The position numbers and the translations under genes were made by a program. From contig JANRMG010000023.1 of the NCBI GenBank assembly GCA_033761855.1, positions 1 through 32,338 on the forward strand: a stretch of 32,338 nt of DNA, read 5' to 3'. The DNA comes from Candidatus Caenarcanales bacterium. Lineage in GTDB: Bacteria; Cyanobacteriota; Vampirovibrionia; Caenarcaniphilales; Caenarcanaceae. Under the pieces are notes generated by a model. It was not told where the DNA came from. It worked only from the letters and a program-made list of their open reading frames with translations, and made no database searches. Of this stretch, positions 2,860-26,260 are shown piece after piece; positions within the stretch are counted from its first letter, which is position 1, and each line of letters opens with the position of its first letter.

Positions 2860-3864
2860 TTAAATCCCAAAGATACCTAATGCTCTATTCAAAAGATTTT
2901 GTTGAAGAGTAATCTTATTGTCTTCAACAATAAATCTTAGTCCATATCTTTGAAGTTTCTCATTCGCTGAACTTGAAATAGCCTCAGACGGAGACCTCGA
3001 TTGTACGAACAATTCTAAAAGCGCATCATTGTAAGTTGCAGGGTCACTATATAATCCAAGAACCTCTTTTGTTAATGAGCTCATGGTTCCGTCAGATATA
3101 TTGGATTTCACTTGTATTCTGTCAGGCCGAACCAATAATTTTAAAGCTTCGAGTATTATCCTTGGATCGATTTTACGATCTTCAGATTGTATTATTTGCT
3201 TTGCCAATTCTAGATCAGTGCCACCAGACTTTAGCCACTTAACAGTTAAGCTCTCTGGCTTAGTGATTGTAAAATCATAGGTATTTGTCTGGGTATTAAA
3301 AGAGACAGAAATACCGGCATTTTTAAGAGCTGTTTCTGCAGGAAAATCCCTTTGGATTTCAGAATCCGAATATCTGGATCCCATTAAATTTTTGATAGCA
3401 TGTTGCACTATTAATTCTTCTGTATCCCTCGTCCATTGAGTCAAATCATCTTCGCCTTGTAGAGATTTAGAAAAAGCTGTATATGTAGTTTTTTGTATAG
3501 ATTGAAGTTCTCTTGATGCCAAGAGTAGCCTTAAGACTTGAGTTATTACAAATTTGTCTTCTTCAGGCATTGTATAAAAGGGGATTTTCTTTTCTCGAAG
3601 GTATTTTATAGCGAATTGGGTAACCTCTCCGTTTTCAGGATTAAAAGAAGTTGAAGGTTGAGAAGCTTTTAAAATTGCATTAGTAATTTCCCTTTCAAGG
3701 TCTGTCCCTTGTGCATAGTAAAAAATTGCAGAACTAAAGTTGGAAGGCAGCAAGAAGTCTGGATGTCTCTCTAGATAATCGACAATTTCCCTGAGTATAG
3801 AAATTGCGTTGTCACTGGCTCTTTTAATTCCGCCATAGCATTGGTGAGCACCCAGTTCAGACAA
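2860..3864 (-). CDS. Hypothetical protein, 334 aa; may be the C-terminal part of a frameshifted gene beginning at 6073
   Basis: Long ORF with a TTG start. Its frame stays open upstream to 3918, overlapping the end of the 721-aa ORF. No family recognised. Confidence 0.7.
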   Translation of the reverse strand: MSELGAHQCYGGIKRASDNAISILREIVDYLERHPDFLLPSNFSSAIFYYAQGTDLEREITNAILKASQPSTSFNPENGEVTQFAIKYLREKKIPFYTMPEEDKFVITQVLRLLLASRELQSIQKTTYTAFSKSLQGEDDLTQWTRDTEELIVQHAIKNLMGSRYSDSEIQRDFPAETALKNAGISVSFNTQTNTYDFTITKPESLTVKWLKSGGTDLELAKQIIQSEDRKIDPRIILEALKLLVRPDRIQVKSNISDGTMSSLTKEVLGLYSDPATYNDALLELFVQSRSPSEAISSSANEKLQRYGLRFIVEDNKITLQQNLLNRALGIFGI

Positions 3865-3890: not shown

Positions 3891-3933
3891 TAAAAGGTAT
3901 TCTGACATCAGACTGATGTCAGAATACCTTTTA
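3891..3933. repeat. Perfect inverted repeat, 20-bp arms, 3-nt loop
   Basis: TAAAAGGTATTCTGACATCA-GAC-TGATGTCAGAATACCTTTTA; the arms are exact reverse complements. Confidence 0.95.
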
Positions 3934-6073
3934 TAAGTGGATCACTTTCTGCTGGATCTTTGCTAAGAAATTGTTTTCTGAAATAAATGCCTGACGAATC
4001 TGTCTTGAATCTATTAACTTCATCACGGGCCAAATAATCAAGATGTTGCCCATTCTCACTTAGACGTTTCATCGCATCATCACAGCGGGTGGCATATTGT
4101 TCAATTACGAATTCTAATAACTCTTGTCCAGAAAGCTCAGCAGGATTGGCCGAAGCATAAATTTGTTGTCCGCGAGTGTTTATACTTGTGATTTCTCCTG
4201 TATGACTAGCCGCAACAGGAACTTGAATGGAAGTTTGATTTGAGGCGCTTCTTAACGCTTGAGTAGGAGCCATTCCATTGTTAAAAAGAATTTGAGCTAG
4301 TTGCTGTTGTTGGGTGGAGAGTTTGTTCCATTGAGCCAATTCCAATTCACTAAGTTTCGATGTAATTGGTTCAGATGTAGGAACTGGTCGAGGTACATTT
4401 GTTGGAGTTGTAACAGTTGTTGATGACGGGGCATGAGAGTTCACATTTGTTGGATGAGTTGAATCTACCGGAATTGTTCCAGAAGAAGTAAAACGAATAC
4501 CAAAAATTGAATTTATCTTAGTCAAATCTAATTTTTTACTTGTCAAACTCAAAAGCTCATCCATTTTATCAGATGGAATTATTTGGTTAAGACCACTCAT
4601 GTTGATTAGTTTGCTAATTTCATCAGCATTGGCGCCACTTTGGATTTTGCTTGCTAACAATAACCCCATTTGTTGCTTAACTGTTTCTAAGTCTTGCGCA
4701 GTAAGTTGTCCGTCTCGCGCTTTGTTCATGATTTCGGTTAAAGCCCTGACTTCAGGCCGATTTGCGTTGTTGAATAAATCATCAGCGCCAGCTCCAACTT
4801 GAGCATCTGGATGGACTATTCTTAGTAAATTTCGAGCCCATTGCCTGACCATATTGGAGTCTTTAGTGTTCAATAATTGTTTTGGATCCGAGCTTGAGCT
4901 GGCTGAGGGAATTGTTGCTAAGCTGCTAGAGCTAAAGAAATTATTAAAAGCAATTTTCCCTCCACTAATACCTATGCTTAAAATAAGGCTAAAAGCTAAG
5001 GTTCCTAACAATTGAGACCTGACTTCGTTTATTTTTTGTAGTTTTTCTTCCTCACCTAGTCTTGGATCGGACAAAATGCTTATATACTTAACCCAGGTTT
5101 CAAGCGTTCCTGTGCTTCCAGTAGTTAAAAAGGCAATTCCAGTTGAGCTTGCCATTGTTGCAAGAGAATGAGACAAACCCTTCCCGACAAAGAAATTAAA
5201 CAAAGGTTTAAAAAGGACAGTACTAATTTTGCTCAATCCAACATTAGAAGCTCCTCTCCATATATCGATCCCCGAAGCCTTAAGTGCTTCCCAAAATTGA
5301 TTCCAGTTTCCAGTTGAACTTGCCTGAGATAGGGCATTGGTTAAAGCTAACTCATCTCCAGAGGCTGTTCTTACTACTTGTCCGGTTAGAAAAGCCGAGC
5401 CGCTTCCTAATGCAGTATGAGCAATAATTGCATTAGTTCCTGTTCCAAATAAAGTTGTTGCTGCCGTTCCTGAGGTTAAAGTAAAGGTGCCCGCTGAGAC
5501 CGCCGTAGCTGTACCAAAAGTCACAATCGAAACCGGTATCATTATTAAACATCCACCAATTGTGTTTCTCAGCCCAATAAGTTCATCTCCTGTTGCATTA
5601 AAGGCTTGTGCTAGTGTTGAATCTAAGCTTGTCTCAAGATTTTGAAGGTATTTTAATACTTCTTGAGGTGGGGCGCCTTCATCAATGGCCTGGTCAACTT
5701 CATCCAGTCGTTGAAAAAATGCAGGATAAATTTCTTCTTCGATTAAACGCATTGAAGAACTCGTGGGTGTCAAATGTCTCCCAATTCCCTGGAGTCTCTG
5801 AAGTCTATTGACGGGATTTAATAGTGGATTGTTGGATAAATTAGAAAAATTGAATGAATCATGGATACTTTCCACGACGGTGTCACGAGAACCTTTTGCA
5901 AGCTCAACTAAGCTTGAATCCTGTCCGATTAATTCTTCTTCAAATTTTTGCCATTCATCTTGTTTTCGGGTTCTTAATCTGGCTACCTCTCTAATTACAA
6001 AAGCCTTTGTTGCCACGCTACCATTTGACGAGTTGGTCGCTAATGAGTTTATGCTTGAGCGCTGGATTGTCAT
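3908..6073 (-). CDS. Large hypothetical protein with a Gly/Ala/Thr-rich hydrophobic region, a J-domain-like HPD segment and a Pro/Thr linker; candidate effector/translocator
   Basis: 721-aa ORF with a Ser/Asn-rich N-terminus and no signal peptide. Hydrophobic stretches at about aa 165-380, then VRQWARNLLRIVHPD...EVRALTEIMNKAR. Confidence 0.75.
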   Translation of the reverse strand: MTIQRSSINSLATNSSNGSVATKAFVIREVARLRTRKQDEWQKFEEELIGQDSSLVELAKGSRDTVVESIHDSFNFSNLSNNPLLNPVNRLQRLQGIGRHLTPTSSSMRLIEEEIYPAFFQRLDEVDQAIDEGAPPQEVLKYLQNLETSLDSTLAQAFNATGDELIGLRNTIGGCLIMIPVSIVTFGTATAVSAGTFTLTSGTAATTLFGTGTNAIIAHTALGSGSAFLTGQVVRTASGDELALTNALSQASSTGNWNQFWEALKASGIDIWRGASNVGLSKISTVLFKPLFNFFVGKGLSHSLATMASSTGIAFLTTGSTGTLETWVKYISILSDPRLGEEEKLQKINEVRSQLLGTLAFSLILSIGISGGKIAFNNFFSSSSLATIPSASSSSDPKQLLNTKDSNMVRQWARNLLRIVHPDAQVGAGADDLFNNANRPEVRALTEIMNKARDGQLTAQDLETVKQQMGLLLASKIQSGANADEISKLINMSGLNQIIPSDKMDELLSLTSKKLDLTKINSIFGIRFTSSGTIPVDSTHPTNVNSHAPSSTTVTTPTNVPRPVPTSEPITSKLSELELAQWNKLSTQQQQLAQILFNNGMAPTQALRSASNQTSIQVPVAASHTGEITSINTRGQQIYASANPAELSGQELLEFVIEQYATRCDDAMKRLSENGQHLDYLARDEVNRFKTDSSGIYFRKQFLSKDPAESDPLIKGILTSV

Positions 6074-11071: not shown

Positions 11072-11881
11072 TTAAGCTTTTTGCCCTACAAAGCATCTGT
11101 GAATACCTTCTATCAGTTCATCCATTGTTAGATAGCGTTGTTTAACCAATCCCATGAAACCATATTTATTCTTTGCAGTGGCTTTCTTGATCAAATCTGC
11201 TGTTCTGGGGCTTACGCTAGGGTTGTCTAAACGAGGATCGGCTGCCGGTGAAGGTTGATCCTTTAGGGTTAGCATTTTGTACATGGTTGCGCCAAGGCTG
11301 TATACATCGCAGCTAGCATCCAAAATTCCATTCATTTGCTCTGGTGCGGAATAGTTTTCTCTTAAACCTACTGCTTCAAAACCGGCTCTGGCAATACCAA
11401 AGTCAATTAGTACTAATTCTTGATTTGGAGTTATTACAATATTATCTGGTGCAATATCAGCATGAAAAATTGGACTGGGTCTGTCATGTAAAAATCTCAA
11501 AACATGGGCGAGCTTGAGACCCCAGGTTAGGACTTTAATCTCATCAATTGGTTTTGTCTGTTTGCGGATGAAGTCTTTCATATTCTCGCCCGCAATATAA
11601 TTCATTATTACAAAGAAAACACCGTTGTCCCAAAAGTAATCCAGAACCTGCACAATATTGGGGTGGTAAAGGCCACCGAAGAGTTGATAATCCTTTTCAA
11701 TTCCATAAAGCTCATCAGGTCCTAAATACATCTGCTTCATAACACAGATTTGGTTGTTATTTAAAGAATCCTGGACTAGGTAAATATAACCCTCTCCTCC
11801 GCGCGACAGGAGGCGGATAATACGATATCTACCGTTTACAACTTGGAAGTTATCTAATAAAAGACTTTGATGAAGTTGCAT
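11072..11881 (-). CDS. Stand-alone Hanks-type Ser/Thr protein kinase domain
   Basis: SRGGEGYIY Gly loop, VMK, HPNIV, HADIAPDN, LIDFG, YSAPE, DVYSLG. Confidence 0.9.
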   Translation of the reverse strand: MQLHQSLLLDNFQVVNGRYRIIRLLSRGGEGYIYLVQDSLNNNQICVMKQMYLGPDELYGIEKDYQLFGGLYHPNIVQVLDYFWDNGVFFVIMNYIAGENMKDFIRKQTKPIDEIKVLTWGLKLAHVLRFLHDRPSPIFHADIAPDNIVITPNQELVLIDFGIARAGFEAVGLRENYSAPEQMNGILDASCDVYSLGATMYKMLTLKDQPSPAADPRLDNPSVSPRTADLIKKATAKNKYGFMGLVKQRYLTMDELIEGIHRCFVGQKA

Positions 11882-13874: not shown

Positions 13875-14648
13875 ATGTTCATCAATAGCCAAGGCGGAAA
13901 CTTAAATTCTGGCAATAGTAAAGTTAATCTACAAGCAGATGCAAGAAATAATTCCCAACAACAACAGGGAATTAAAAATAGTTACATAAAAGGGGGGGAT
14001 ATTGCTCAAGGTGAAGGCCCCTTTAATGCTGCAAATGCTGCAAATAGTTTATTAAGTAGAGCTTCAACACCAGATACTTTTAATGCAGGTCAACATGCTG
14101 CAGGAAATCAAAGTAATTTCTTTTCTGGGACTGGTATAAGCCTTCAGGAAACTGCAACAGTTATTAATCAACAGCAACAGTTTATGGAATTAAAAGTTGC
14201 AAGCGCAGGGATTATTGAAGTGAAATCACCACCACCAAGACCAAACCCTCCACCTGTTAACCCAACACCCGCGCCTCCTCCTTATAATCCACCTCCATCA
14301 CCCCCTCCAATTGCTCCACCTCCAGTGGCGCCCCCACCTGCGGTACCTCCAACTCCTCCACTACCTCCACCTTACGCTCCAGAAGGTTACCCTTGTATAA
14401 ATGATGAAGGTTTAGAAGTTGGCTACAAGCTTATGTCTGATACCCGCATCATTTATTACAACCAGGGTGGACAAAACCTCTACTTCTCGGATGATCAATT
14501 CGCAAATGCTACTGGATACAATATGACTCTTCAGCAAGCTCATCAGCAAGGTTTATGTACTCCATTGCCGGTTGACGCTTCTGGACATCCAATTCTGGGC
14601 GGTACACCACATCCTGCAGTAGAGGGTGTTGACTACACTTATGGTTAG
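13875..14648 (+). CDS. Proline-rich hypothetical protein (N/Q-rich N-terminus, polyproline middle, small C-terminal domain)
   Basis: 257-aa ORF with an approximately 50-aa polyproline tract containing PPPY twice. No signal peptide visible. Confidence 0.75.
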   Translation: MFINSQGGNLNSGNSKVNLQADARNNSQQQQGIKNSYIKGGDIAQGEGPFNAANAANSLLSRASTPDTFNAGQHAAGNQSNFFSGTGISLQETATVINQQQQFMELKVASAGIIEVKSPPPRPNPPPVNPTPAPPPYNPPPSPPPIAPPPVAPPPAVPPTPPLPPPYAPEGYPCINDEGLEVGYKLMSDTRIIYYNQGGQNLYFSDDQFANATGYNMTLQQAHQQGLCTPLPVDASGHPILGGTPHPAVEGVDYTYG

Positions 14649-16931: not shown

Positions 16932-17456
16932 ATGGCATTATCAGGTGGCGGAAAAGGAAGACAAACATTCAACGAGATAAACATTACTCCGTTGACGGAT
17001 GTATTCTTGGTTTTGCTGGTTATTATGTTTTTGATTGCTCCTTTGCTCGACAATAAAGCTGCTTTAAAGGTTGATCCTCCAGCGGCTGAAAGCGCCAAGA
17101 GCACCGATGTATCAAAGCTTAAATCGATTTTGATAGAAGTAACCAAAGATGGAACCATCGCTATAGACGGACAAGTGGTGGCCGAAGCAGATGTTCCGGT
17201 GGAGCAAGTCCAATCCAAGGTTTATGAAACTCTTAAGAAAACTGCTGATTCAATTACCGGAGGAGCCAATCCTCAAGCGGCAGCACCCGAAGGAGAGGTA
17301 GCTTCTGCTGGCGCTGAAAAGCCACTTGTAAAGCTTAAAGCTGACAATAAAGTTGATTACGGCAGAGTTGTTGCGGTATTAGATGCCATTAATAAAGCAC
17401 AGTTAGGCAAGTTGAGTTTGGTAACTACCGTTCCTGCGGGACAGGTTGGGCAGTAG
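16932..17456 (+). CDS. ExbD/TolR family biopolymer transport protein
   Basis: EINITPLTDVFLVLLVIM (conserved TM Asp), KADNKVDYGRVVAVLD; AGGAG ribosome-binding site upstream. Confidence 0.92.
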   Translation: MALSGGGKGRQTFNEINITPLTDVFLVLLVIMFLIAPLLDNKAALKVDPPAAESAKSTDVSKLKSILIEVTKDGTIAIDGQVVAEADVPVEQVQSKVYETLKKTADSITGGANPQAAAPEGEVASAGAEKPLVKLKADNKVDYGRVVAVLDAINKAQLGKLSLVTTVPAGQVGQ

Positions 17457-17460
17457 GTTG

Positions 17461-20274
17461 TTATGATCTACCCTGAGCTAGCGATCCAGTTGTGTGGCTT
17501 TTAGAGCCTAAGTCTGACCATTCCTTGAACAAAGGATCTTCTGGATTAAGAGTTTTAATTTGCTTTATGAGACTTTGAGTTAACACAGCAGTTGGAATTC
17601 TGGCCTTGTTTCTTATTTGAAGCTCAAGCAAATCTAATCCATCTAAAAGAGGCTTTGGTTCAGTTATTCCGGTCAATTCTCTTACTTTACGCGTTGCAAG
17701 TTCGAATTCACTTTTTAGTTCTTGCCAAAGAGGAGAAAATTTAGGATCATCCATTAAGTGAGAGGTTACAAACATTTCCGTATATTGCAAACCATAAAGT
17801 AAATTGCCTAAATAATTATTTAATTGTGTTGAGTTACCCTCTTCATAAATTTGCTTTAAAAGCTCAAATTGTTCATGATTCAATTCGTTGAGCGAAGTGC
17901 CACTTCCATACCATATATAGATTTGCTGTAAAACCCTTGCAAAGTTTTCAACCGAAGGAATTGCTCTAATAGCTTCCATTCCACTGTCTTCTCGGGAAGT
18001 ATGCTTAGGAGGACGGCTTCCATAATTGTGAGTAAATCTAGAAGGAGTTGCTTCTCTGTAAAACTCAGCGAAAAGAGGATTTTTGTAAAGTTGCTTGAAC
18101 TTTGTTTTGATTCCTTCCATATATTTATCAATTACTTCAAACTTATTGCCACTGATTCTGGCCATGCTACCCCTTCCAGCAATCCCCTTAACCAAGGCTT
18201 CAAGCAATTTTGCGGAATAATATTGTCCAGTCTCTTTGAGACCATAGTCCCTATACACTCCATCTCCCTGAACTGTTAAGTGAAGGAGAAAACTGCCAGT
18301 TTCTGCTTGAATCGACTCATGGGTATCTTCAATACGCCTGCCGCCTCTTGCCGTTGCATAGCCTCCTCCAAGGAAAAATTGGCAAATAATATTAAAGCTT
18401 TCTGCAATTCGATTCACAGTAGCCTTTTTTAACTTATTAATTTGTGTTCTAAATTTATTAACAGCTTCTTCAATTCTGTAAGCAGCTTTATAAATTTCCC
18501 AGCCAGCAGGCTGACTACCCATTCGGACGCCCGTATCAGAGAACCCTAACATCCATTCAAATTTCTTTCTAATCGTAGCTATCTTTATTGTTAATTCATC
18601 GTTTGGATCCGCTATTCCTTCTGCAATTGCGCTAATAAAGGGTTCTTCTATATCGTCTGGTGTTTCAATTAAAGGAACAATATCGAGATTGAATTCCTCA
18701 AAAGTCTTTGTTGGATTAGCAATTTTCCAAAGTAGAAGAAGTTCACGAGTATTGAGTTTTCCATGATAAGTGTTACTCATAATATATGTCTGACAAGCTT
18801 TTGCTCCATGTTCTTCTTGAACCGTGTTTATCATCTTCAGGGTCTCAATTACTTCTTCTGTACTGCCACTCAGTCCTGAAGTTTGTATTGTTTCAGGAAC
18901 ATTTGGGAAATCAGAATCTAATAACTTATTGATTAGATCAATCTTTTCATCAGGAGATAGCTCAGAATAGGTTCCATTTTCCAGTATAATAAGTTCATTT
19001 AAGGCTTTAGTATGTCTGCCGGTGTTTTGCCTAACTTTACCTTCTGAGAGGTGAAAGCCAAAGATATCCACTCCGGCTATAAGCTTGTCTACTTTAGTTA
19101 AGTGCGCCTTATTTGCATTTAAAGAAATTTGTCTTAAAGCCAGAAGATCTTCTTTGAATTCTTCTAGTGAAGCATGAGGTTCGATATCATCAGATGAGAC
19201 ATTCAAGGCCCCTTGAAATTCTTGAAGCTTAGCCTCTTTGACCTTTAAAGTTTTTTGCAGTTTAGATTGAATTCTTGCTAGCAGTTCTGGAAGGCCTTGA
19301 ATATTAAAAGTAAAATATTTTGTTAACTGTGCAGACTCTTCAGATAATACTTTAAGAATAAAAACACTCTTACGCAAAGCATATTCTTCTGAAACTTGTG
19401 GTGTTACAAAAGGATTTCCATCTCTATCAAATGCCTCCCATCCTCCAATATGGAATAACGGTTTACATAATTTAATTCTTGTAGGATCGTACAGCTTATA
19501 AATTTCAACTTGATTCTCAGTTAATGCATGGTATAGATCTCTGCCTACAAGCTCCAAGAAATTTTGAGCTTCTTCCAAAGGCTTTTGTCTTTCGGAATAT
19601 CTGGCTCTTGTTAATGAAACTTGCTGTATATGGCTGATTATTTCCTCTTCATCACCTCTTTGTAGAGCTTTAATAAGAACGTTTCTTGCTGTCCAGTTTT
19701 GTTTAGTCCAAGTAAAAGTTGGATGAGAAGTAAAAGTTATTTCTAACCCAGCTTTTATTGAAGGATCCGTCTCGCAAAGCTGCCTCATTGCTGAAGTTAA
19801 ACCTTCTTGATTGAAAAGATCTTGAATAATTTCTTGTCCAGTCCTTGGACGAGTTTTTCCAAAATGTGCGTATTTAAGTGCTTCAAATAAAATAATATAG
19901 CGATCGCTATATTGCAAAAGCAGTCTGTAAACATCTTGTCTATCTTTGAAATGACCTGTAGACAGAGCTGCTTCAACAAAGCTATCAAAAGCTTCTATTG
20001 GAGATATTCCAACTTGTACTTTATCACCTTGTATTTGAAGTCTTAAATTTTCTTCCAGTTGAGGAAATATTTCATGAATGTATTCAAGCCCTGGATGAGC
20101 ACTTTCTCCGATGTCTTTGAGAAAAGGCCTATAACTTTCAAGACCACCGATAACATGACTTCGAAAATTTTGTTCAGCTCCTTGTTTTGTTCTAGGAATT
20201 AAATTTTGTGAACTATGAAAAGTTTTTCTGGCTCTTAGAGAGTGAAATTTACAAGACTCAGAATGAACTTTCAT
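17461..20274 (-). CDS. Highly divergent phosphoenolpyruvate carboxylase homolog (bacterial/plant-type fold)
   Basis: Motifs in correct order: TSHPT, DRDGNPFVT, FGFHL..VRQ, YIMS, IVPLIET, MLGFSD, ARGG, TVQG, GSRP, IRAIP, WYGSG. Several catalytic motifs are altered, so the ppc symbol is withheld. Confidence 0.85.
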   Translation of the reverse strand: MKVHSESCKFHSLRARKTFHSSQNLIPRTKQGAEQNFRSHVIGGLESYRPFLKDIGESAHPGLEYIHEIFPQLEENLRLQIQGDKVQVGISPIEAFDSFVEAALSTGHFKDRQDVYRLLLQYSDRYIILFEALKYAHFGKTRPRTGQEIIQDLFNQEGLTSAMRQLCETDPSIKAGLEITFTSHPTFTWTKQNWTARNVLIKALQRGDEEEIISHIQQVSLTRARYSERQKPLEEAQNFLELVGRDLYHALTENQVEIYKLYDPTRIKLCKPLFHIGGWEAFDRDGNPFVTPQVSEEYALRKSVFILKVLSEESAQLTKYFTFNIQGLPELLARIQSKLQKTLKVKEAKLQEFQGALNVSSDDIEPHASLEEFKEDLLALRQISLNANKAHLTKVDKLIAGVDIFGFHLSEGKVRQNTGRHTKALNELIILENGTYSELSPDEKIDLINKLLDSDFPNVPETIQTSGLSGSTEEVIETLKMINTVQEEHGAKACQTYIMSNTYHGKLNTRELLLLWKIANPTKTFEEFNLDIVPLIETPDDIEEPFISAIAEGIADPNDELTIKIATIRKKFEWMLGFSDTGVRMGSQPAGWEIYKAAYRIEEAVNKFRTQINKLKKATVNRIAESFNIICQFFLGGGYATARGGRRIEDTHESIQAETGSFLLHLTVQGDGVYRDYGLKETGQYYSAKLLEALVKGIAGRGSMARISGNKFEVIDKYMEGIKTKFKQLYKNPLFAEFYREATPSRFTHNYGSRPPKHTSREDSGMEAIRAIPSVENFARVLQQIYIWYGSGTSLNELNHEQFELLKQIYEEGNSTQLNNYLGNLLYGLQYTEMFVTSHLMDDPKFSPLWQELKSEFELATRKVRELTGITEPKPLLDGLDLLELQIRNKARIPTAVLTQSLIKQIKTLNPEDPLFKEWSDLGSKSHTTGSLAQGRS

Positions 20275-20311: not shown

Positions 20312-20340
20312 ATGTTAATAAAATATTACGAATGCGTCAA
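20312..20340 (-). promoter_or_regulatory. Candidate sigma70 promoter for the PEPC-like gene
   Basis: Minus strand TTGACG-N17-TAACAT ending about 37 nt upstream of ATG 20274. The -35 is embedded in an imperfect palindrome GAATGCG-TCAAT-CGTATTC (20330-20348). Confidence 0.45.
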
Positions 20341-20410: not shown

Positions 20411-20755
20411 TTAAATCTGTAAGTTCTCAAGTTGCTTAATGCCTTTAACTAACTCATTCATAGTCCTGATGGTAACGTTCAGTTTGTGTTCAGCTTCCAT
20501 CATTGAAATCATTAATTCGGTGGAATCATAGGGTCTTTTACCACTCACCATGTCTCTTGCCATTTGGTTTGGCTCGTTAATTTCTCCAGAAACTTTAGAA
20601 AGCATATTCGAAAAAGTACCCGCTAAAGAATTAGGTTGACCCGAAGCTCCCGGTAAATTGGGAGTGTTTGGCATCGTTGGAGAGCCTGGAAAAGACGGAA
20701 GCTTTGGCATCTCGGGATAACCGGGATAGGAGGGGAAACCAGGAAAAGTCGTCAT
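20411..20755 (-). CDS. fliE: FliE-like flagellar hook-basal body protein with a proline-periodic N-terminus
   Basis: C-terminal FSNML...MVSG...DSTELMISMMEAEHKLNVTIRTMNELVKGIKQLENLQI follows the FliE pattern (F..L, G...D..E.M....A...L....RN....Y.....MQI). Confidence 0.7.
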   Translation of the reverse strand: MTTFPGFPSYPGYPEMPKLPSFPGSPTMPNTPNLPGASGQPNSLAGTFSNMLSKVSGEINEPNQMARDMVSGKRPYDSTELMISMMEAEHKLNVTIRTMNELVKGIKQLENLQI

Positions 20756-22126: not shown

Positions 22127-23788
22127 TTGAGAGAGTTACACAAAACAAATAATCATTTCTGGAGCGAAAAAGTATTGTCTAATAATAACTCAAAAAAATT
22201 ATCCTCTATAACCATCCTAATTGGTGTTAGTCTCCTGGCTCTTTTATCGGTGGTATTGCATTATTTGGGTTTTCTCTCTCAGGTTCTTGCCTATCCTTTG
22301 GCAGCTTCACTGCAAGAGTCTTGGAATACAACCTTTGCTTTTAGTCTTTATTCGCCAACAACAACTTTCTCTAATACTTGGAATTATGCCATCAGTCCAG
22401 CTTTTACAGAGCTTTTGATTGCCAGCATAAAAATTCTGGGAAAGAATTTCAATACAGAAAACATATCGTTTATCTTTAGCACCTCTCGAGTTTTGAGTCT
22501 GGTTGGGCTTTTGGGAAGCCTTAGCATATTTTATTTAATTCAAAAGAAAGAAGACATTAAACCATTAGCATCTCTTGCCTCTTTTTTAATTTTGCTTTCT
22601 CTTCCACTCATTCAAGAATTTTCTTTTAAATCTGCTGGCGCTTCTTTGGGACTTATGTTTGGGTTTTGTGCCATCTATCGGTTTATGACTTATGTCCGCA
22701 AAGAGAGTTGGCGCCCCGCTATATTGATTGGAAGCTGTTTGGCACTTTCCATAGCGCTTTCGCATAATTTGGTTTTTTGGGCTTTTCCTCTTTCGTGCTT
22801 TGTAATTCTTTTTAGCGTAAAAAATAAAGCAGCATTTTTTAAAATTGCACTCGTATTTAGTCTTCTAATCGCCTTAGATACATTTATTAGTTTTAGAACT
22901 CATGGTTTTTCTGGCAGCTTTTTGGGCTTAACCGGCTGGAAATCCGAGCTTTGGACACAGAATTTAGATATTTTTTATTCTTGGGCGCTTTTTTCATTGA
23001 TTGCTCTGTTTCTCTTTTTGGTTGGACGGAAAATTGATTTTGAGACAAACCCCATCCATCCTTGCAATACCATTGTTCTATTTGCTCTGCCATCCAACTT
23101 GTTGTTGTCGGGAATGTCTTTGGATAATTTGAGTGGATGGGCGCTTTTAAGTTTTGCTATTGTCTGGATGGGAGCCATCTTCCTCAACAAGCTTTTAACC
23201 GGGCGCCACAGATTGGGCTTAAATTTACTTAGCTGTTTAATTTTGGCCATTGCGCTCTTTACACCGCTTCTGCCGCCAGAATTAATATTGGTTCTGCAAG
23301 AAAAACCGTCTGCTCTGGCGGCAACTCAAGAATGGTTACAAAAAAACAAAGCAGAAAACCAGAATCAATCAAAAGTTGAAAAGCGCAAATCCAAAAGAAA
23401 AAAAAGAAAGATAAAGCAACAGCAAATTTTTTCACAAGACCCAACTCTGAACTTAATTGCTGCAACTTCTTTAGAGGAGATCTACGATCCAATCAAGCTT
23501 TTTAACGATGACAGTCTCACTGACAAACTTGAAACTGCTTTTTTAGAGCAAAAATTTGATAAGGTTTTCAAGACCAAATTCTTTGCTTTACCCTCTTCCA
23601 TTCAACAATCCATAAGAACCAGCTATCTTCCCGAACAGGAAATTTTGGTGGCTGGCTCTCCGGGAGCAATGTATATTCCTGGCATTCCTAGTGACGTGGA
23701 TAGACGAGATCCAAAATGGAAAACAGAGAATGAAGATCAAGTTGCTACTAGTGAAGAAGGTTATGCAACTTTTACAAAAGTAGAATGA
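22127..23788 (+). CDS. Multi-pass membrane protein, possibly a GT-C-fold glycosyltransferase; start uncertain
   Basis: About 11-12 hydrophobic segments with a first extracytoplasmic loop and a soluble C-terminal domain. Family inferred from architecture only. Confidence 0.55.
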   Translation: MRELHKTNNHFWSEKVLSNNNSKKLSSITILIGVSLLALLSVVLHYLGFLSQVLAYPLAASLQESWNTTFAFSLYSPTTTFSNTWNYAISPAFTELLIASIKILGKNFNTENISFIFSTSRVLSLVGLLGSLSIFYLIQKKEDIKPLASLASFLILLSLPLIQEFSFKSAGASLGLMFGFCAIYRFMTYVRKESWRPAILIGSCLALSIALSHNLVFWAFPLSCFVILFSVKNKAAFFKIALVFSLLIALDTFISFRTHGFSGSFLGLTGWKSELWTQNLDIFYSWALFSLIALFLFLVGRKIDFETNPIHPCNTIVLFALPSNLLLSGMSLDNLSGWALLSFAIVWMGAIFLNKLLTGRHRLGLNLLSCLILAIALFTPLLPPELILVLQEKPSALAATQEWLQKNKAENQNQSKVEKRKSKRKKRKIKQQQIFSQDPTLNLIAATSLEEIYDPIKLFNDDSLTDKLETAFLEQKFDKVFKTKFFALPSSIQQSIRTSYLPEQEILVAGSPGAMYIPGIPSDVDRRDPKWKTENEDQVATSEEGYATFTKVE

Positions 23789-25834: not shown

Positions 25835-26260
25835 GTGAAAAAAACAACCAAATCTAAAGCTAAACCAGCTGCTAAATCTACCGTAGCCAAGAAAGCTGCT
25901 CCAAAGAAAGCTGCTGCTAAGAAGCCAGTTGCTAAAAAAATCATCAAAAAAGTAGCTGCTCCTAAAAAGTCAGTTGCTCTTAAGAAAATTGCTGCTCCTA
26001 AAAAGCTTGCAACCAAAAAAGCTGCTGCTCCTAAAAAAGCTGTTGCTAAGAAGCCAGTTGCTAAGAAAGGTATTGCTGCTAAAGCTCTTTCTACTCTTAA
26101 AAAAGCTGCTTCCAAAGTTGCCAAGAAAGTAACCAAAAAAGCTCCAGCCGCTAAATCCAAGGCTGCTAAAGCTAAAAAGGTTATTTTGGGTAAAGCTGTT
26201 AAGGCTAAAGCGCTCTCTTCAATCAAAAGAAGAGTTAAAGCTAAAGCCGCTAAAAAATAA
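25835..26260 (+). CDS. Histone H1-like Lys/Ala-rich DNA-binding protein
   Basis: 141 aa of KKAAP/KKPVA-type repeats with no Asp, Glu or aromatic residues; strong GCT/AAA codon bias; followed by a terminator. Confidence 0.85.
   Translation: MKKTTKSKAKPAAKSTVAKKAAPKKAAAKKPVAKKIIKKVAAPKKSVALKKIAAPKKLATKKAAAPKKAVAKKPVAKKGIAAKALSTLKKAASKVAKKVTKKAPAAKSKAAKAKKVILGKAVKAKALSSIKRRVKAKAAKK

What the first reader, a model, noticed from the sequence alone, without database searches (positions are those of the whole stretch)
17461..20274. Intact PEP-carboxylase homolog with a selectively re-wired active site: possible new activity or pseudoenzyme
Seen: an uninterrupted 937-aa ORF with its own candidate promoter and all PEPC motifs in order. 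Compared from memory with E. coli Ppc numbering, residues for phosphoryl chemistry and metal/PEP binding appear kept: H138 (SHPT), R396 (VRQ), E506 (IET), D543 (FSD), R587 (ARGG), R699 (GSRP), R713 (IRAIP). Near-invariant residues linked to bicarbonate binding or loop closure are changed: YSDSxKDxG to FSDTGVRMG (K546 lost), FHGRGGxxGRGG to FLGGGYATARGG (H579 and R581 lost), SRPxKRR to SRPPKHT, RAIPW to RAIPS, and the C-terminal RNTG is absent (ends AQGRS). Inference: selective loss without stops or frameshifts suggests repurposing (PEP hydrolysis, phosphotransfer or sensing) rather than decay. The basic, Ser-rich N-terminal extension is also unlike ordinary Ppc.
Basis: partly seen in the sequence, partly recalled or inferred. 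Interest (0 to 1): 0.72.

Follow-up and report, generated by a model that had tools for sequence, protein, structure and literature searches.

The report
Fast-evolving spare PEP carboxylase copy
This is an intact but unusually fast-evolving second copy of the carbon-fixing enzyme PEP carboxylase in a non-photosynthetic relative of cyanobacteria; it keeps the residues that hold its substrate but has lost several normally invariant ones, so it probably no longer works as an ordinary carboxylase.

Summary
Window 17461-20274 (-) is an uninterrupted 937-codon PEP carboxylase (PEPC) homolog with a full PEPC fold. It keeps H138, R396, E506, D543, R587, R699 and R713 (E. coli numbering). It has lost K546, R581, G583, G586, R703, W721, D394, K773 and N881.

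The genome's other, ordinary PEPC (contig C135) belongs to that subfamily and keeps 86 of 87 conserved columns; this copy keeps 58.

New here: the closest sampled genus has, in the same nine-gene slot (exbD / PEPC-like / fliE), a 965-aa PEPC-like gene only 22% identical. It shares a conserved promoter-like site and the ATGAAAGTTC start. In a third genus, the only fragment found of the copy abuts a multi-copy insertion sequence. Only two partial clade mates turned up among 1.84 billion representative proteins.

Both intact orthologs stayed open through extreme divergence, which argues for selection, though the copy is dispensable. My reading is an accessory, PEP/Mg-binding enzyme with rebuilt active-site lids; whether it still makes oxaloacetate is open. 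This is a new variant of a known kind, of moderate interest.

The parts
17461..20274 (-). 937-aa divergent PEP carboxylase paralog (P0001), stop codon included
   Evidence: ORF listing and translation. Pfam PEPcase 217.7 bits. AlphaFold pLDDT 85.3, pTM 0.90. Foldseek finds PEPC structures first, E 7e-34, TM 0.76-0.81.
20312..20340 (-). Promoter-like site TTGACG-17-TAACAT, 38 nt upstream of the ATG
   Evidence: Consensus scan, not above chance on its own. The same spacing and near-identical hexamers (TTGTCG / TAAGAT) occur in the orthologous fliE / PEPC-like spacer of G007, and the start ATGAAAGTTC is identical.
20188..20274 (-). Basic, Ser-rich N-terminal extension (residues 1-29) absent from ordinary PEPCs
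   Evidence: Translation. Residues 1-24 have pLDDT below 50 and the first helix starts at residue 30. Homology to other PEPCs starts near residue 84.
19717..19731 (-). TSHPT (residues 182-186): catalytic His loop, H138 equivalent kept, A137->S
   Evidence: Alignments. S183 is shared with the clade mate P0077.
18517..18543 (-). FSDTGVRMG (residues 578-586): metal ligand D543 equivalent kept; K546->V583, D547->R584
   Evidence: Alignments. K is 62 of 62 in ordinary PEPCs.
18379..18435 (-). 19-residue insertion (residues 614-632) just before the glycine-rich loop
   Evidence: Alignment with 22 other PEPCs. Residues 618-629 have pLDDT below 50.
18337..18375 (-). Rebuilt glycine-rich loop FLGGGYATARGGR (residues 634-646): R581->G, G583->Y, G586->A, R587 kept
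   Evidence: Alignments. Y and A are shared with the G002 fragment P0097. Residues 638-644 have pLDDT below 50.
17998..18021 (-). GSRPPKHT (residues 752-759): R699 equivalent kept, R703->H758 in the second mobile loop
   Evidence: Alignments. H is shared with P0097.
17938..17968 (-). IRAIPSVENFA (residues 769-779): R713 equivalent kept, W717->S, W721->F
   Evidence: Alignments.
16932..17456 (+). exbD/tolR-like gene, convergent neighbour that marks the conserved slot
   Evidence: Pfam ExbD. Same position next to the PEPC-like gene in G007.
20411..20755 (-). fliE, upstream on the same strand; the other marker of the conserved slot
   Evidence: Pfam FliE. Same position in G007.

Best explanation
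P0001 is a lineage-restricted, fast-evolving accessory paralog of the organism's own Bacteroidota-type PEP carboxylase. The organism is a member of the Caenarcaniphilales (Melainabacteria/Vampirovibrionia). The ordinary copy on contig C135 most likely does the anaplerotic work.

Shown here:
- The accessory copy keeps the PEPC fold.
- It keeps the residues that bind Mg2+ (E506, D543) and the residues I recall as binding the PEP phosphate (R396, R699, R713).
- It keeps the catalytic His (H138), R587, and the pocket residues W248/L504/M538.
- It has rebuilt both mobile lids (the glycine-rich loop and the KRR loop).
- It has lost K546 and D394, and two of the three residues I recall as the aspartate inhibitor site (K773, N881).

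Inferred: it still binds PEP-Mg2+ and carries out phosphoryl-transfer/enolate chemistry, but with a weakened or altered bicarbonate and lid-closure step. It would then be either a slow, feedback-insensitive carboxylase or an enzyme that mainly hydrolyses PEP to pyruvate and phosphate. Within this explanation I put roughly even odds on those two outcomes.

Shown: it is kept open by selection but is dispensable, as the order-wide distribution shows.
For: Fold and family: Pfam PEPcase 217.7 bits; AlphaFold pLDDT 85.3 and pTM 0.90; best structural matches are PEPCs, including E. coli 1jqn, TM 0.76-0.81.

Second, ordinary copy: C135, 895 aa, Pfam 535 bits, keeps 86 of 87 columns that are at least 90% conserved in 62 ordinary PEPCs. 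P0001 keeps 58 of 87.

Positional ortholog: G007 has a 965-aa PEPC-like gene (Pfam 224.8 bits) in the same order rnhB, orf257, proB, exbB, exbD, X, fliE, sua5, orf553. It shares the promoter-like site and start. It is only 22% identical to P0001, while flanking proteins are 56-79% identical (two unnamed flanking ORFs, 32-33%).

Shared core: the two orthologs share 43 of the 87 conserved columns. Those include all of H138, W248, R396, L504, E506, M538, D543, R587, R699 and R713.

Selection: no internal stop, against 51-100 in the other frames. Neutral simulation gives about 49 stops at 27% identity. dN is 0.75-1.03 against 0.37-0.38 for the main PEPC between the same genomes, with dS saturated or about 2.8.

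Mechanism background: Mg2+ is held by one Glu and one Asp, a loop His deprotonates carboxyphosphate, and a hydrophobic pocket shields CO2 (passages of PMC10176493). H138, H579 and R587 are reported as important for E. coli PEPC activity (passages of PMC11832675).
Against: No assay, expression data or population data exist. No sequencing run was listed, and no close relative allows a usable dN/dS.

The invariants lost differ between the two positional orthologs (K546 and R703 go only in P0001; the R and N of DRDGNP and P503/F505 go only in G007). That fits relaxed constraint as well as it fits a new function.

The copy is dispensable. In G002 the only fragment found abuts an insertion sequence. 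Some populations carry that fragment split into 191-aa and 157-aa pieces. No such copy was found in six of the nine genomes of the order.

GC3 of 0.246 is the lowest of the 14 genes measured in the window, which may mean low expression.

I chose the set of ten 'core' residues from recalled literature after seeing the alignment, so its full retention is suggestive rather than a clean test. The roles I give to K546, R581, R703, K773 and N881 are recalled, not taken from a paper read here.
Confidence: 0.5

Rival explanations
1. It is a non-catalytic PEPC-derived protein (pseudoenzyme). It would be a PEP-sensing or regulatory subunit that may co-assemble with the ordinary PEPC tetramer, as bacterial-type PEPC subunits do in plant and algal Class-2 PEPC complexes (recalled).
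For: Several 61-62 of 62 invariant residues are lost. Sequence change is very fast while the fold is kept. An ordinary copy is present in the same genome. Both orthologs carry a disordered basic N-terminal extension.
Against: Both orthologs, at 22% mutual identity, keep every metal, PEP-phosphate, His, R587 and CO2-pocket residue. A pure scaffold would not need them. No interaction was tested: two full chains exceed the size limit of the complex predictor, so no job was sent.
Confidence: 0.17
2. It is a working PEP carboxylase isozyme. Nearby residues would compensate for the lost ones: R584 next to V583 for K546, and R646/R647 after the loop for R581.
For: The catalytic core and hydrophobic pocket are intact. 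R581 is also replaced in a well-conserved ~1090-aa PEPC-like protein of another family of the class, f4. PF00311 gives only weak matches (best E 2e-80 to 3e-22) in 28 of 30 f4 genomes. In the three I inspected (G022, G027, G032) R581 is W, and 57-59 of 87 conserved columns are kept. So R581, W721 and the GG before DRDGNP can be replaced in a protein under strong constraint.
Against: K546, G583 and R703 are 62 of 62 in ordinary PEPCs and are kept in the f4 type, but are lost here. The ordinary copy already covers the function. The copy evolves 2-3 times faster than that one at nonsynonymous sites.
Confidence: 0.2
3. It is a redundant duplicate on its way to loss, still open by luck or because it died recently.
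For: The distribution is patchy and G002 has an insertion sequence against its only fragment. Split 191-aa and 157-aa forms occur in the P0097 cluster. GC3 is the lowest of the genes measured in the window. The two orthologs have lost different invariants.
Against: Two orthologs of 937 and 965 codons are both open after divergence to 22% identity. Neutral drift predicts about 49 stops. dN is well below saturated dS. The promoter-like site and start codon context are conserved. The catalytic core is retained in both. A very recent death cannot be excluded.
Confidence: 0.1

Closest known systems
Bacteroidota-type short PEP carboxylase subfamily (about 850-900 aa; includes this genome's own copy on C135 and the main PEPC of 8 of the 9 order genomes, G000 included)
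   Same: Nearest relatives by sequence, at 26-29% identity. P0001 branches at the base of this clade with SH-aLRT 100. It shares the GFSD form of the metal motif, FF before the glycine-rich loop, and the two extra residues after SRPxK.
   Different: The subfamily keeps TAHPTQFYP, GFSDGTKDGG, FFDGRGGPPxRGGG, SRPxKR, RAIPFVGAWT and the NA(S/E/G)RNS(V/A) end, and its member C135 keeps 86 of 87 conserved columns. P0001 keeps 58 of 87 and sits on a stem of about 3 substitutions per site. I know of no biochemically characterised member of this subfamily (recalled; not searched specifically).
Canonical bacterial Ppc (E. coli, PDB 1JQN/1FIY; EC 4.1.1.31)
   Same: Same fold (TM 0.76/0.81 to 1jqn). H138, R396, E506, D543, R587, R699 and R713 are kept.
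   Different: About 23% identity. K546V, H579L, R581G, G583Y, G586A, R703H, W717S, W721F, D394K, K773Y; no RNTG end; a 19-residue insertion before the glycine-rich loop; an N-terminal extension.
Plant and green-algal bacterial-type PEPC (BTPC) subunits of Class-2 PEPC hetero-oligomers (recalled from the literature, not read here)
   Same: A divergent PEPC paralog that coexists with an ordinary PEPC and carries an extra disordered segment. It is a precedent for a paralog serving as a regulatory partner.
   Different: As I recall, BTPCs keep the catalytic invariants and are active carboxylases. They are not specifically related to P0001. No interaction was tested here.
~1090-aa PEPC-like protein of Vampirovibrionia family f4 (unnamed; PF00311 gives only weak matches in 28 of 30 f4 genomes searched)
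   Same: It also keeps only 57-59 of the 87 conserved columns. It also replaces R581, W721, the GG before DRDGNP, D394 and K773, while keeping H138, R396, E506, D543, R587, R699 and R713.
   Different: It is highly conserved between genera (phmmer 1234-1706 bits among the three inspected), whereas the f1 copies evolve very fast. It keeps K546 and R703. It has no special sequence affinity to P0001 (30-47 bits). Only 3 of the 28 were inspected.

Membership tests
PEP carboxylase family (Pfam PF00311, PEPcase) | Profile match above the curated cut-off over most of the length | tested here: met
   217.7 bits against a cut-off of 22.4; best stretch residues 331-912 on profile positions 331-891 of 919.
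PEP carboxylase family (Pfam PF00311, PEPcase) | PEPC fold | tested here: met
   AlphaFold pLDDT 85.3, pTM 0.90. All listed Foldseek hits are PEPCs, E 7e-34, TM 0.72-0.81.
Functional Ppc (NCBIfam equivalog NF000584 / PRK00009) | Score above the equivalog cut-off of 815 bits | tested here: not met
   196.5 bits. This carries little weight: the genome's ordinary copy (525.8) and a Bacteroidota-type PEPC (527.8) also fail it.
Functional Ppc | Metal ligands E506 and D543 | tested here: met
   E537 and D580. Role from passages of PMC10176493.
Functional Ppc | Catalytic His of the TAHPT loop (H138) | tested here: met
   H184 in TSHPT. Role from passages of PMC10176493 and PMC11832675.
Functional Ppc | PEP-phosphate arginines R396, R699, R713 (role recalled) | tested here: met
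   R415, R754 and R770.
Functional Ppc | Glycine-rich loop F(H/D)GRGGxxxRGGG with R581 and R587 | tested here: not met
   FLGGGYATARGGR: R581G, G583Y, G586A, G590R; R587 is kept. R581 is 61 of 62 and G583 is 62 of 62 in ordinary PEPCs.
Functional Ppc | Lys of the (Y/F)SDxxKDGG motif (K546) | tested here: not met
   V583; K is 62 of 62 in ordinary PEPCs. The G007 ortholog keeps it.
Functional Ppc | Arg of the SRPxKR mobile loop (R703) | tested here: not met
   H758; R is 62 of 62. H is shared with P0097; the G007 ortholog keeps R.
Functional Ppc | Aspartate/malate inhibitor site K773, R832, N881 (roles recalled) | tested here: not met
   Y831, R888 (kept), and T928 or R936 depending on the alignment. 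The C-terminal alignment is uncertain.
Functional Ppc | Bicarbonate-dependent oxaloacetate formation | not testable with these tools
   Needs an enzyme assay.

The most novel reading that the evidence does not exclude
Caenarcaniphilales carry, in a fixed chromosomal slot with its own conserved promoter, a PEPC-derived protein that has left carboxylation behind. It would keep the PEP-Mg2+ site, the catalytic His and R587 but have rebuilt lids. It would then be either a new PEP-dependent enzyme (bicarbonate-independent PEP hydrolysis or transfer to another acceptor) or the first bacterial PEPC pseudoenzyme acting as a PEP-sensing partner of the ordinary PEPC. Together with the conserved ~1090-aa f4 protein, which replaces some of the same invariants, this would mark an unrecognised functional radiation of the PEPC fold in Melainabacteria.
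Probability: 0.25. Interest if true: 0.7.

Novelty: new variant of a known kind. Interest (0 to 1): 0.45.

Why it matters
PEPC is treated as a single-function family with a fixed set of invariant residues. I found no paper on a PEPC pseudoenzyme or neofunctionalised PEPC: the search for 'phosphoenolpyruvate carboxylase' with 'pseudoenzyme' gave one irrelevant paper, and with 'Melainabacteria' it gave three, seen only in the search listing and none on this topic by title and abstract start.

Here natural variants have replaced K546, R581, G583, R703 and W721 while keeping the PEP/Mg core under selection. They are ready-made probes of which residues the carboxylation step really needs. They also warn that 'phosphoenolpyruvate carboxylase' annotations in Melainabacteria may overstate what these copies do, which affects metabolic reconstructions of anaplerosis in this group.

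Tried and rejected
dN/dS between P0001 and its relatives. Synonymous sites are saturated (undefined in 3 of 5 pairs, about 2.6-2.8 in the other two), so no ratio is reported, only dN.

Public sequencing runs for expression or population variants. None was listed and no RNA holder was listed.

Metagenome scan with the G002 fragment. It gave one 2949-base contig that breaks in the same repeat, so there is no upstream context.

Search for the N-terminal half of the G002 copy. It was not found in G002 with P0001 residues 1-625, nor with P0077 in any of the nine genomes of the order. G002 is 83% complete, so this is not proof of absence.

A pyruvate-kinase bypass idea (PEP hydrolase replacing a missing PK). 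All 9 of 9 genomes of the order have PK, so it was rejected.

Defence-system idea to explain the fast evolution. PADLOC gave no match for P0001, P0215 or four neighbouring orphans.

Remnants of the gene next to exbD or fliE in G004. The genes there are pentapeptide-repeat proteins, a radical-SAM protein and a sigma factor.

Placing the divergent clade inside or outside the order's own PEPCs. The trees leave a polytomy of very long branches at the base of the Bacteroidota-type clade, and long-branch effects cannot be excluded. The trees used the quick search only, and no AU test was run.

Earlier scan notes by words and by sequence gave nothing. Rfam and tRNA scans of the window gave nothing.

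Complex prediction was not used: two full PEPC chains exceed its size limit, and I make no binding claim.
Full report
**1. The object.** Window 17461-20274 (-) is a 937-codon ORF. Its own frame has only the terminal stop. The other five frames have 51-100 stops, and 2000 shuffles gave a mean of 69.5 and a minimum of 43. It matches Pfam PEPcase at 217.7 bits. It matches the NCBIfam Ppc equivalog at 196.5 bits against a cut-off of 815. That failure means little, because the genome's ordinary copy (525.8) and a Bacteroidota-type PEPC (527.8) also fail. An AlphaFold model built on a 65-sequence alignment has pLDDT 85.3 and pTM 0.90. The weak segments are residues 1-24, 618-629, 638-644 and 930-937. 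Foldseek finds only PEPCs at the top, including E. coli 1jqn, with E 7e-34 to 1.6e-31 and TM 0.72-0.81.

**2. The motifs.** I took E. coli Ppc from NC_000913 to fix the numbering.
- Kept: H138 (H184), W248 (W279), R396 (R415), L504, E506 (E537), M538, D543 (D580), R587 (R643), R699 (R754), R713 (R770).
- Changed: D394K, K546V, D547R, H579L, R581G, G583Y, G586A, R703H, W717S, W721F, K773Y, and no RNTG end.
- A 19-residue insertion (614-632) precedes the glycine-rich loop.

However, H579, W717 and RNTG are not invariant. The Bacteroidota-type subfamily has FFDGRGG, RAIPF and RNS(V/A) at those places.

To measure the losses I counted columns that are at least 90% conserved in 62 ordinary PEPCs. 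There are 87 such columns:

| Protein | Conserved columns kept |
|---|---|
| P0001 (this gene) | 58 of 87 |
| C135 copy (same genome) | 86 of 87 |
| P0215 (G007 ortholog) | 60 of 87 |

**3. A second, ordinary PEPC.** The assembly is 2.33 Mb in 356 contigs and about 92% complete. It has an 895-aa PEPC on contig C135 (Pfam 535 bits) with TAHPT, GFSDGTKDGG, FFDGRGGPPSRGGG, SRPTKR and an RNSV end. It is 51-59% identical to the main PEPC of the other genera of the order, and 45% identical to Bacteroidota PEPCs. P0001 is 27% identical to it.

**4. Who else has this copy.**
- A word-indexed search of 5.8 billion proteins gave no relative above 27% identity.
- An exhaustive HMMER search of 1.84 billion representatives gave 1371 hits at E <= 0.001. 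Only two of the hits listed stood out as clade mates. P0097 is 366 aa and 35% identical to residues 621-909. P0077 is 464 aa, 33% identical to residues 124-580, and comes from a 1908-base contig ending at ...MLGFSD.
- They share derived states with P0001: TSHPT, G(K/E)VRQNTG(R/K)H, G583Y, G586A, a three-residue insertion after RGG, R703H, and RAIxSVE.
- In trees the three form a clade (SH-aLRT 99) on a stem of 2.8-3.1 substitutions per site, at the base of the Bacteroidota-type clade (support 100). That node is a polytomy of long branches, so I do not claim when the duplication happened.
- Sources name P0097 'Candidatus Melainabacteria bacterium' and P0215 'Candidatus Caenarcaniphilales bacterium'.

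**5. The copy in G002 abuts an insertion sequence.** P0097 is encoded on G002:C126.
- The 142 bases upstream of it recur in G002 in 20 matches, 9 of them full-length and 100% identical, and several lie at contig ends.
- In the 7 copies I compared, identity runs 7-8 bases further, through ATGGTCA. So the repeat end supplies the fragment's start codon.
- The repeat starts a gene on the other strand that looks to me like an IS3-type transposase. That is my reading of 27 codons and was not tested.
- The same contig break occurs in the one metagenome contig found.
- The P0097 cluster also contains 191-aa and 157-aa members, seen on up to 10 and 7 contigs. I read these as further splitting; I did not see their DNA.
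- No N-terminal half was found in G002, which is 83% complete.

**6. A positional ortholog in G007.** G007 is the genus closest to G000 by its neighbouring proteins. It has the gene order rnhB, orf257, proB, exbB, exbD, X, fliE, sua5, orf553, exactly as in the window. X is a 965-aa ORF, P0215.
- P0215 is PEPC-like (Pfam 224.8 bits) but only 22% identical to P0001 over 395 residues (BLASTP E 2e-7). phmmer finds no mutual hit.
- Flanking proteins are 56-79% identical (rnhB 56, proB 75, exbB 79, exbD 74, fliE 59, sua5 56). Two unnamed flanking ORFs are 32-33% identical.
- The fliE-to-X spacers align. The promoter-like site is conserved (TTGACG-17-TAACAT against TTGTCG-17-TAAGAT), and the start ATGAAAGTTC is identical.
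- P0215 has TIHPT, WWDMDGHP, IDNRQ, VQLRES, GHSDARKDGG, FHGTGGSPERGGG, WSRPAGR and LRAISFHAVNY.
- It keeps 60 of the 87 conserved columns. The two orthologs share 43 of them.
- Its end branch is 6.9 substitutions per site.
- Residue numbers for E. coli and P0215 printed are unreliable, because --keeplength dropped residues. I use for numbering.
- With Pfam PF00311, the other six genomes of the order show no extra PEPC-like gene: G003, G004, G005, G006 and G008 have only the main copy, and G001 has none. None of the regions I fetched next to exbD or fliE in G002, G003, G004, G005, G006 and G008 holds one. I also checked the ORFs flanking them in G004.

**7. Selection.** Random substitution of the C135 gene down to 27% protein identity gives a mean of 48.6 in-frame stops (minimum 40, 30 runs), without counting indels. 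P0001 and P0215 have none. Nei-Gojobori distances are as follows:

| Pair | dN | Codons compared |
|---|---|---|
| P0001 - P0097 | 0.75 | 322 |
| P0001 - P0215 | 1.03 | 834 |
| Main PEPC, G000 - G002 | 0.38 | 880 |
| Main PEPC, G000 - G007 | 0.37 | 870 |

dS is undefined (saturated) or about 2.8. So the accessory copy changes 2-3 times faster than the main one, but well below the synonymous rate. This is weak purifying selection, not neutrality. A proper ratio cannot be given.

**8. What it most likely does.**
- *Established background.* PEPC binds PEP through Mg2+, which is held by one Glu and one Asp. Bicarbonate attacks the phosphate to give carboxyphosphate and the enolate. A loop His deprotonates carboxyphosphate, and CO2 is held in a hydrophobic pocket (passages of PMC10176493). 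H138, H579 and R587 are cited as important for E. coli PEPC activity (passages of PMC11832675). R703 lies in an exposed loop cut by trypsin (one passage of PMC8637149).
- *Recalled, not read here.* R396, R699 and R713 hold the PEP phosphate. W248, L504 and M538 form the pocket. K773, R832 and N881 bind aspartate. H138N and R587S mutants hydrolyse PEP without carboxylating. The plant equivalent of K546 affects bicarbonate affinity.
- *Shown.* Both orthologs keep all ten core residues: H138, W248, R396, L504, E506, M538, D543, R587, R699 and R713. They keep them while sharing only 43 of the 87 conserved columns. What varies lies in the two mobile lids and around them. I chose the ten-residue set after seeing the alignment, so this is suggestive only.
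- *Inferred.* The PEP/Mg site is still used, lid closure and the bicarbonate step are altered, and in P0001 aspartate feedback is lost.
- My odds, over all readings, are set out below.

| Reading | Odds |
|---|---|
| Altered enzyme on PEP (slow, unregulated carboxylase or PEP hydrolase) | about 0.5 |
| Ordinary carboxylase with compensation | 0.2 |
| Non-catalytic partner or sensor | 0.17 |
| Decaying duplicate | 0.1 |

**9. Wider context found on the way.** A PF00311 search of 401 genomes of the class found matches in 172. In family f4, 28 of 30 genomes have only a weak match (best E 2e-80 to 3e-22). The three I inspected (G022, G027, G032) encode a well-conserved ~1090-aa protein that keeps 57-59 of the 87 columns. 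It replaces R581 (W), W721 (F), the GG before DRDGNP, D394 (H) and K773 (T), and keeps K546 and R703. So replacing R581 and W721 is compatible with strong constraint in at least one lineage. This tempers the idea that their loss alone kills the enzyme.

**10. Verdict.** This is a new, fast-evolving variant of a known enzyme family, under selection but dispensable, with function untested. No paper on a PEPC pseudoenzyme or on PEPC in Melainabacteria bearing on this was found (search listings only).

Noticed in passing
L016:7836-9875 (+) = G002:C51, about 3 kb downstream of that genome's main PEPC: A third PEPC gene in G002: 680 aa from the first Met, 747-aa open frame, Pfam 593 bits, ending KNTG like canonical PEPCs. 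It lacks the N-terminal part with the TAHPT loop and has FFHGTGG (R581->T). It keeps 67 of 81 conserved columns.
   Followed up: partly
L068:2138-5413 (+), L069:4298-7570 (+), L070:342-3623 (-) = genomes G022, G027, G032 of family f4: A conserved ~1090-aa PEPC-like protein ending GNGCID. PF00311 gives only weak matches in 28 of 30 f4 genomes. It has R581->W, DRDGNP->RDIDGNP and LDxRQ->GHTRQ. It may be a distinct, unrecognised PEPC-derived family and deserves its own study.
   Followed up: partly
L017:3171-3319 (G002:C126 end) and 19 other places in G002: A multi-copy repeat (20 matches, 9 of them full-length and 100% identical) that starts what looks like an IS3-type transposase gene. It sits at many contig ends and donates the ATG of the truncated PEPC-like fragment.
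   Followed up: partly
window 25835-26260 (+): A 141-aa Lys/Ala-rich ORF (repeats of AAKK/PKK) resembling histone-H1-like bacterial nucleoid proteins. An ORF on the opposite strand fully overlaps it and is probably spurious.
   Followed up: no
window 2860-3864 (-), 3908-6073 (-), 13875-14648 (+), 22127-23788 (+): Four ORFs of 257-721 aa with no Pfam match. Three of them, plus the ORF at 3908-6073, also have no PADLOC match. Those at 13875 and 22127 have syntenic counterparts in G007 at only 32-33% identity, so fast-evolving orphans flank the PEPC-like gene too.
   Followed up: partly
window 11072-11881 (-): A eukaryote-like Ser/Thr protein kinase (Pfam Pkinase 86.8 bits) lies 6 kb from the PEPC-like gene. 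Plant PEPCs are regulated by N-terminal Ser phosphorylation (recalled), but nothing links the two here.
   Followed up: no
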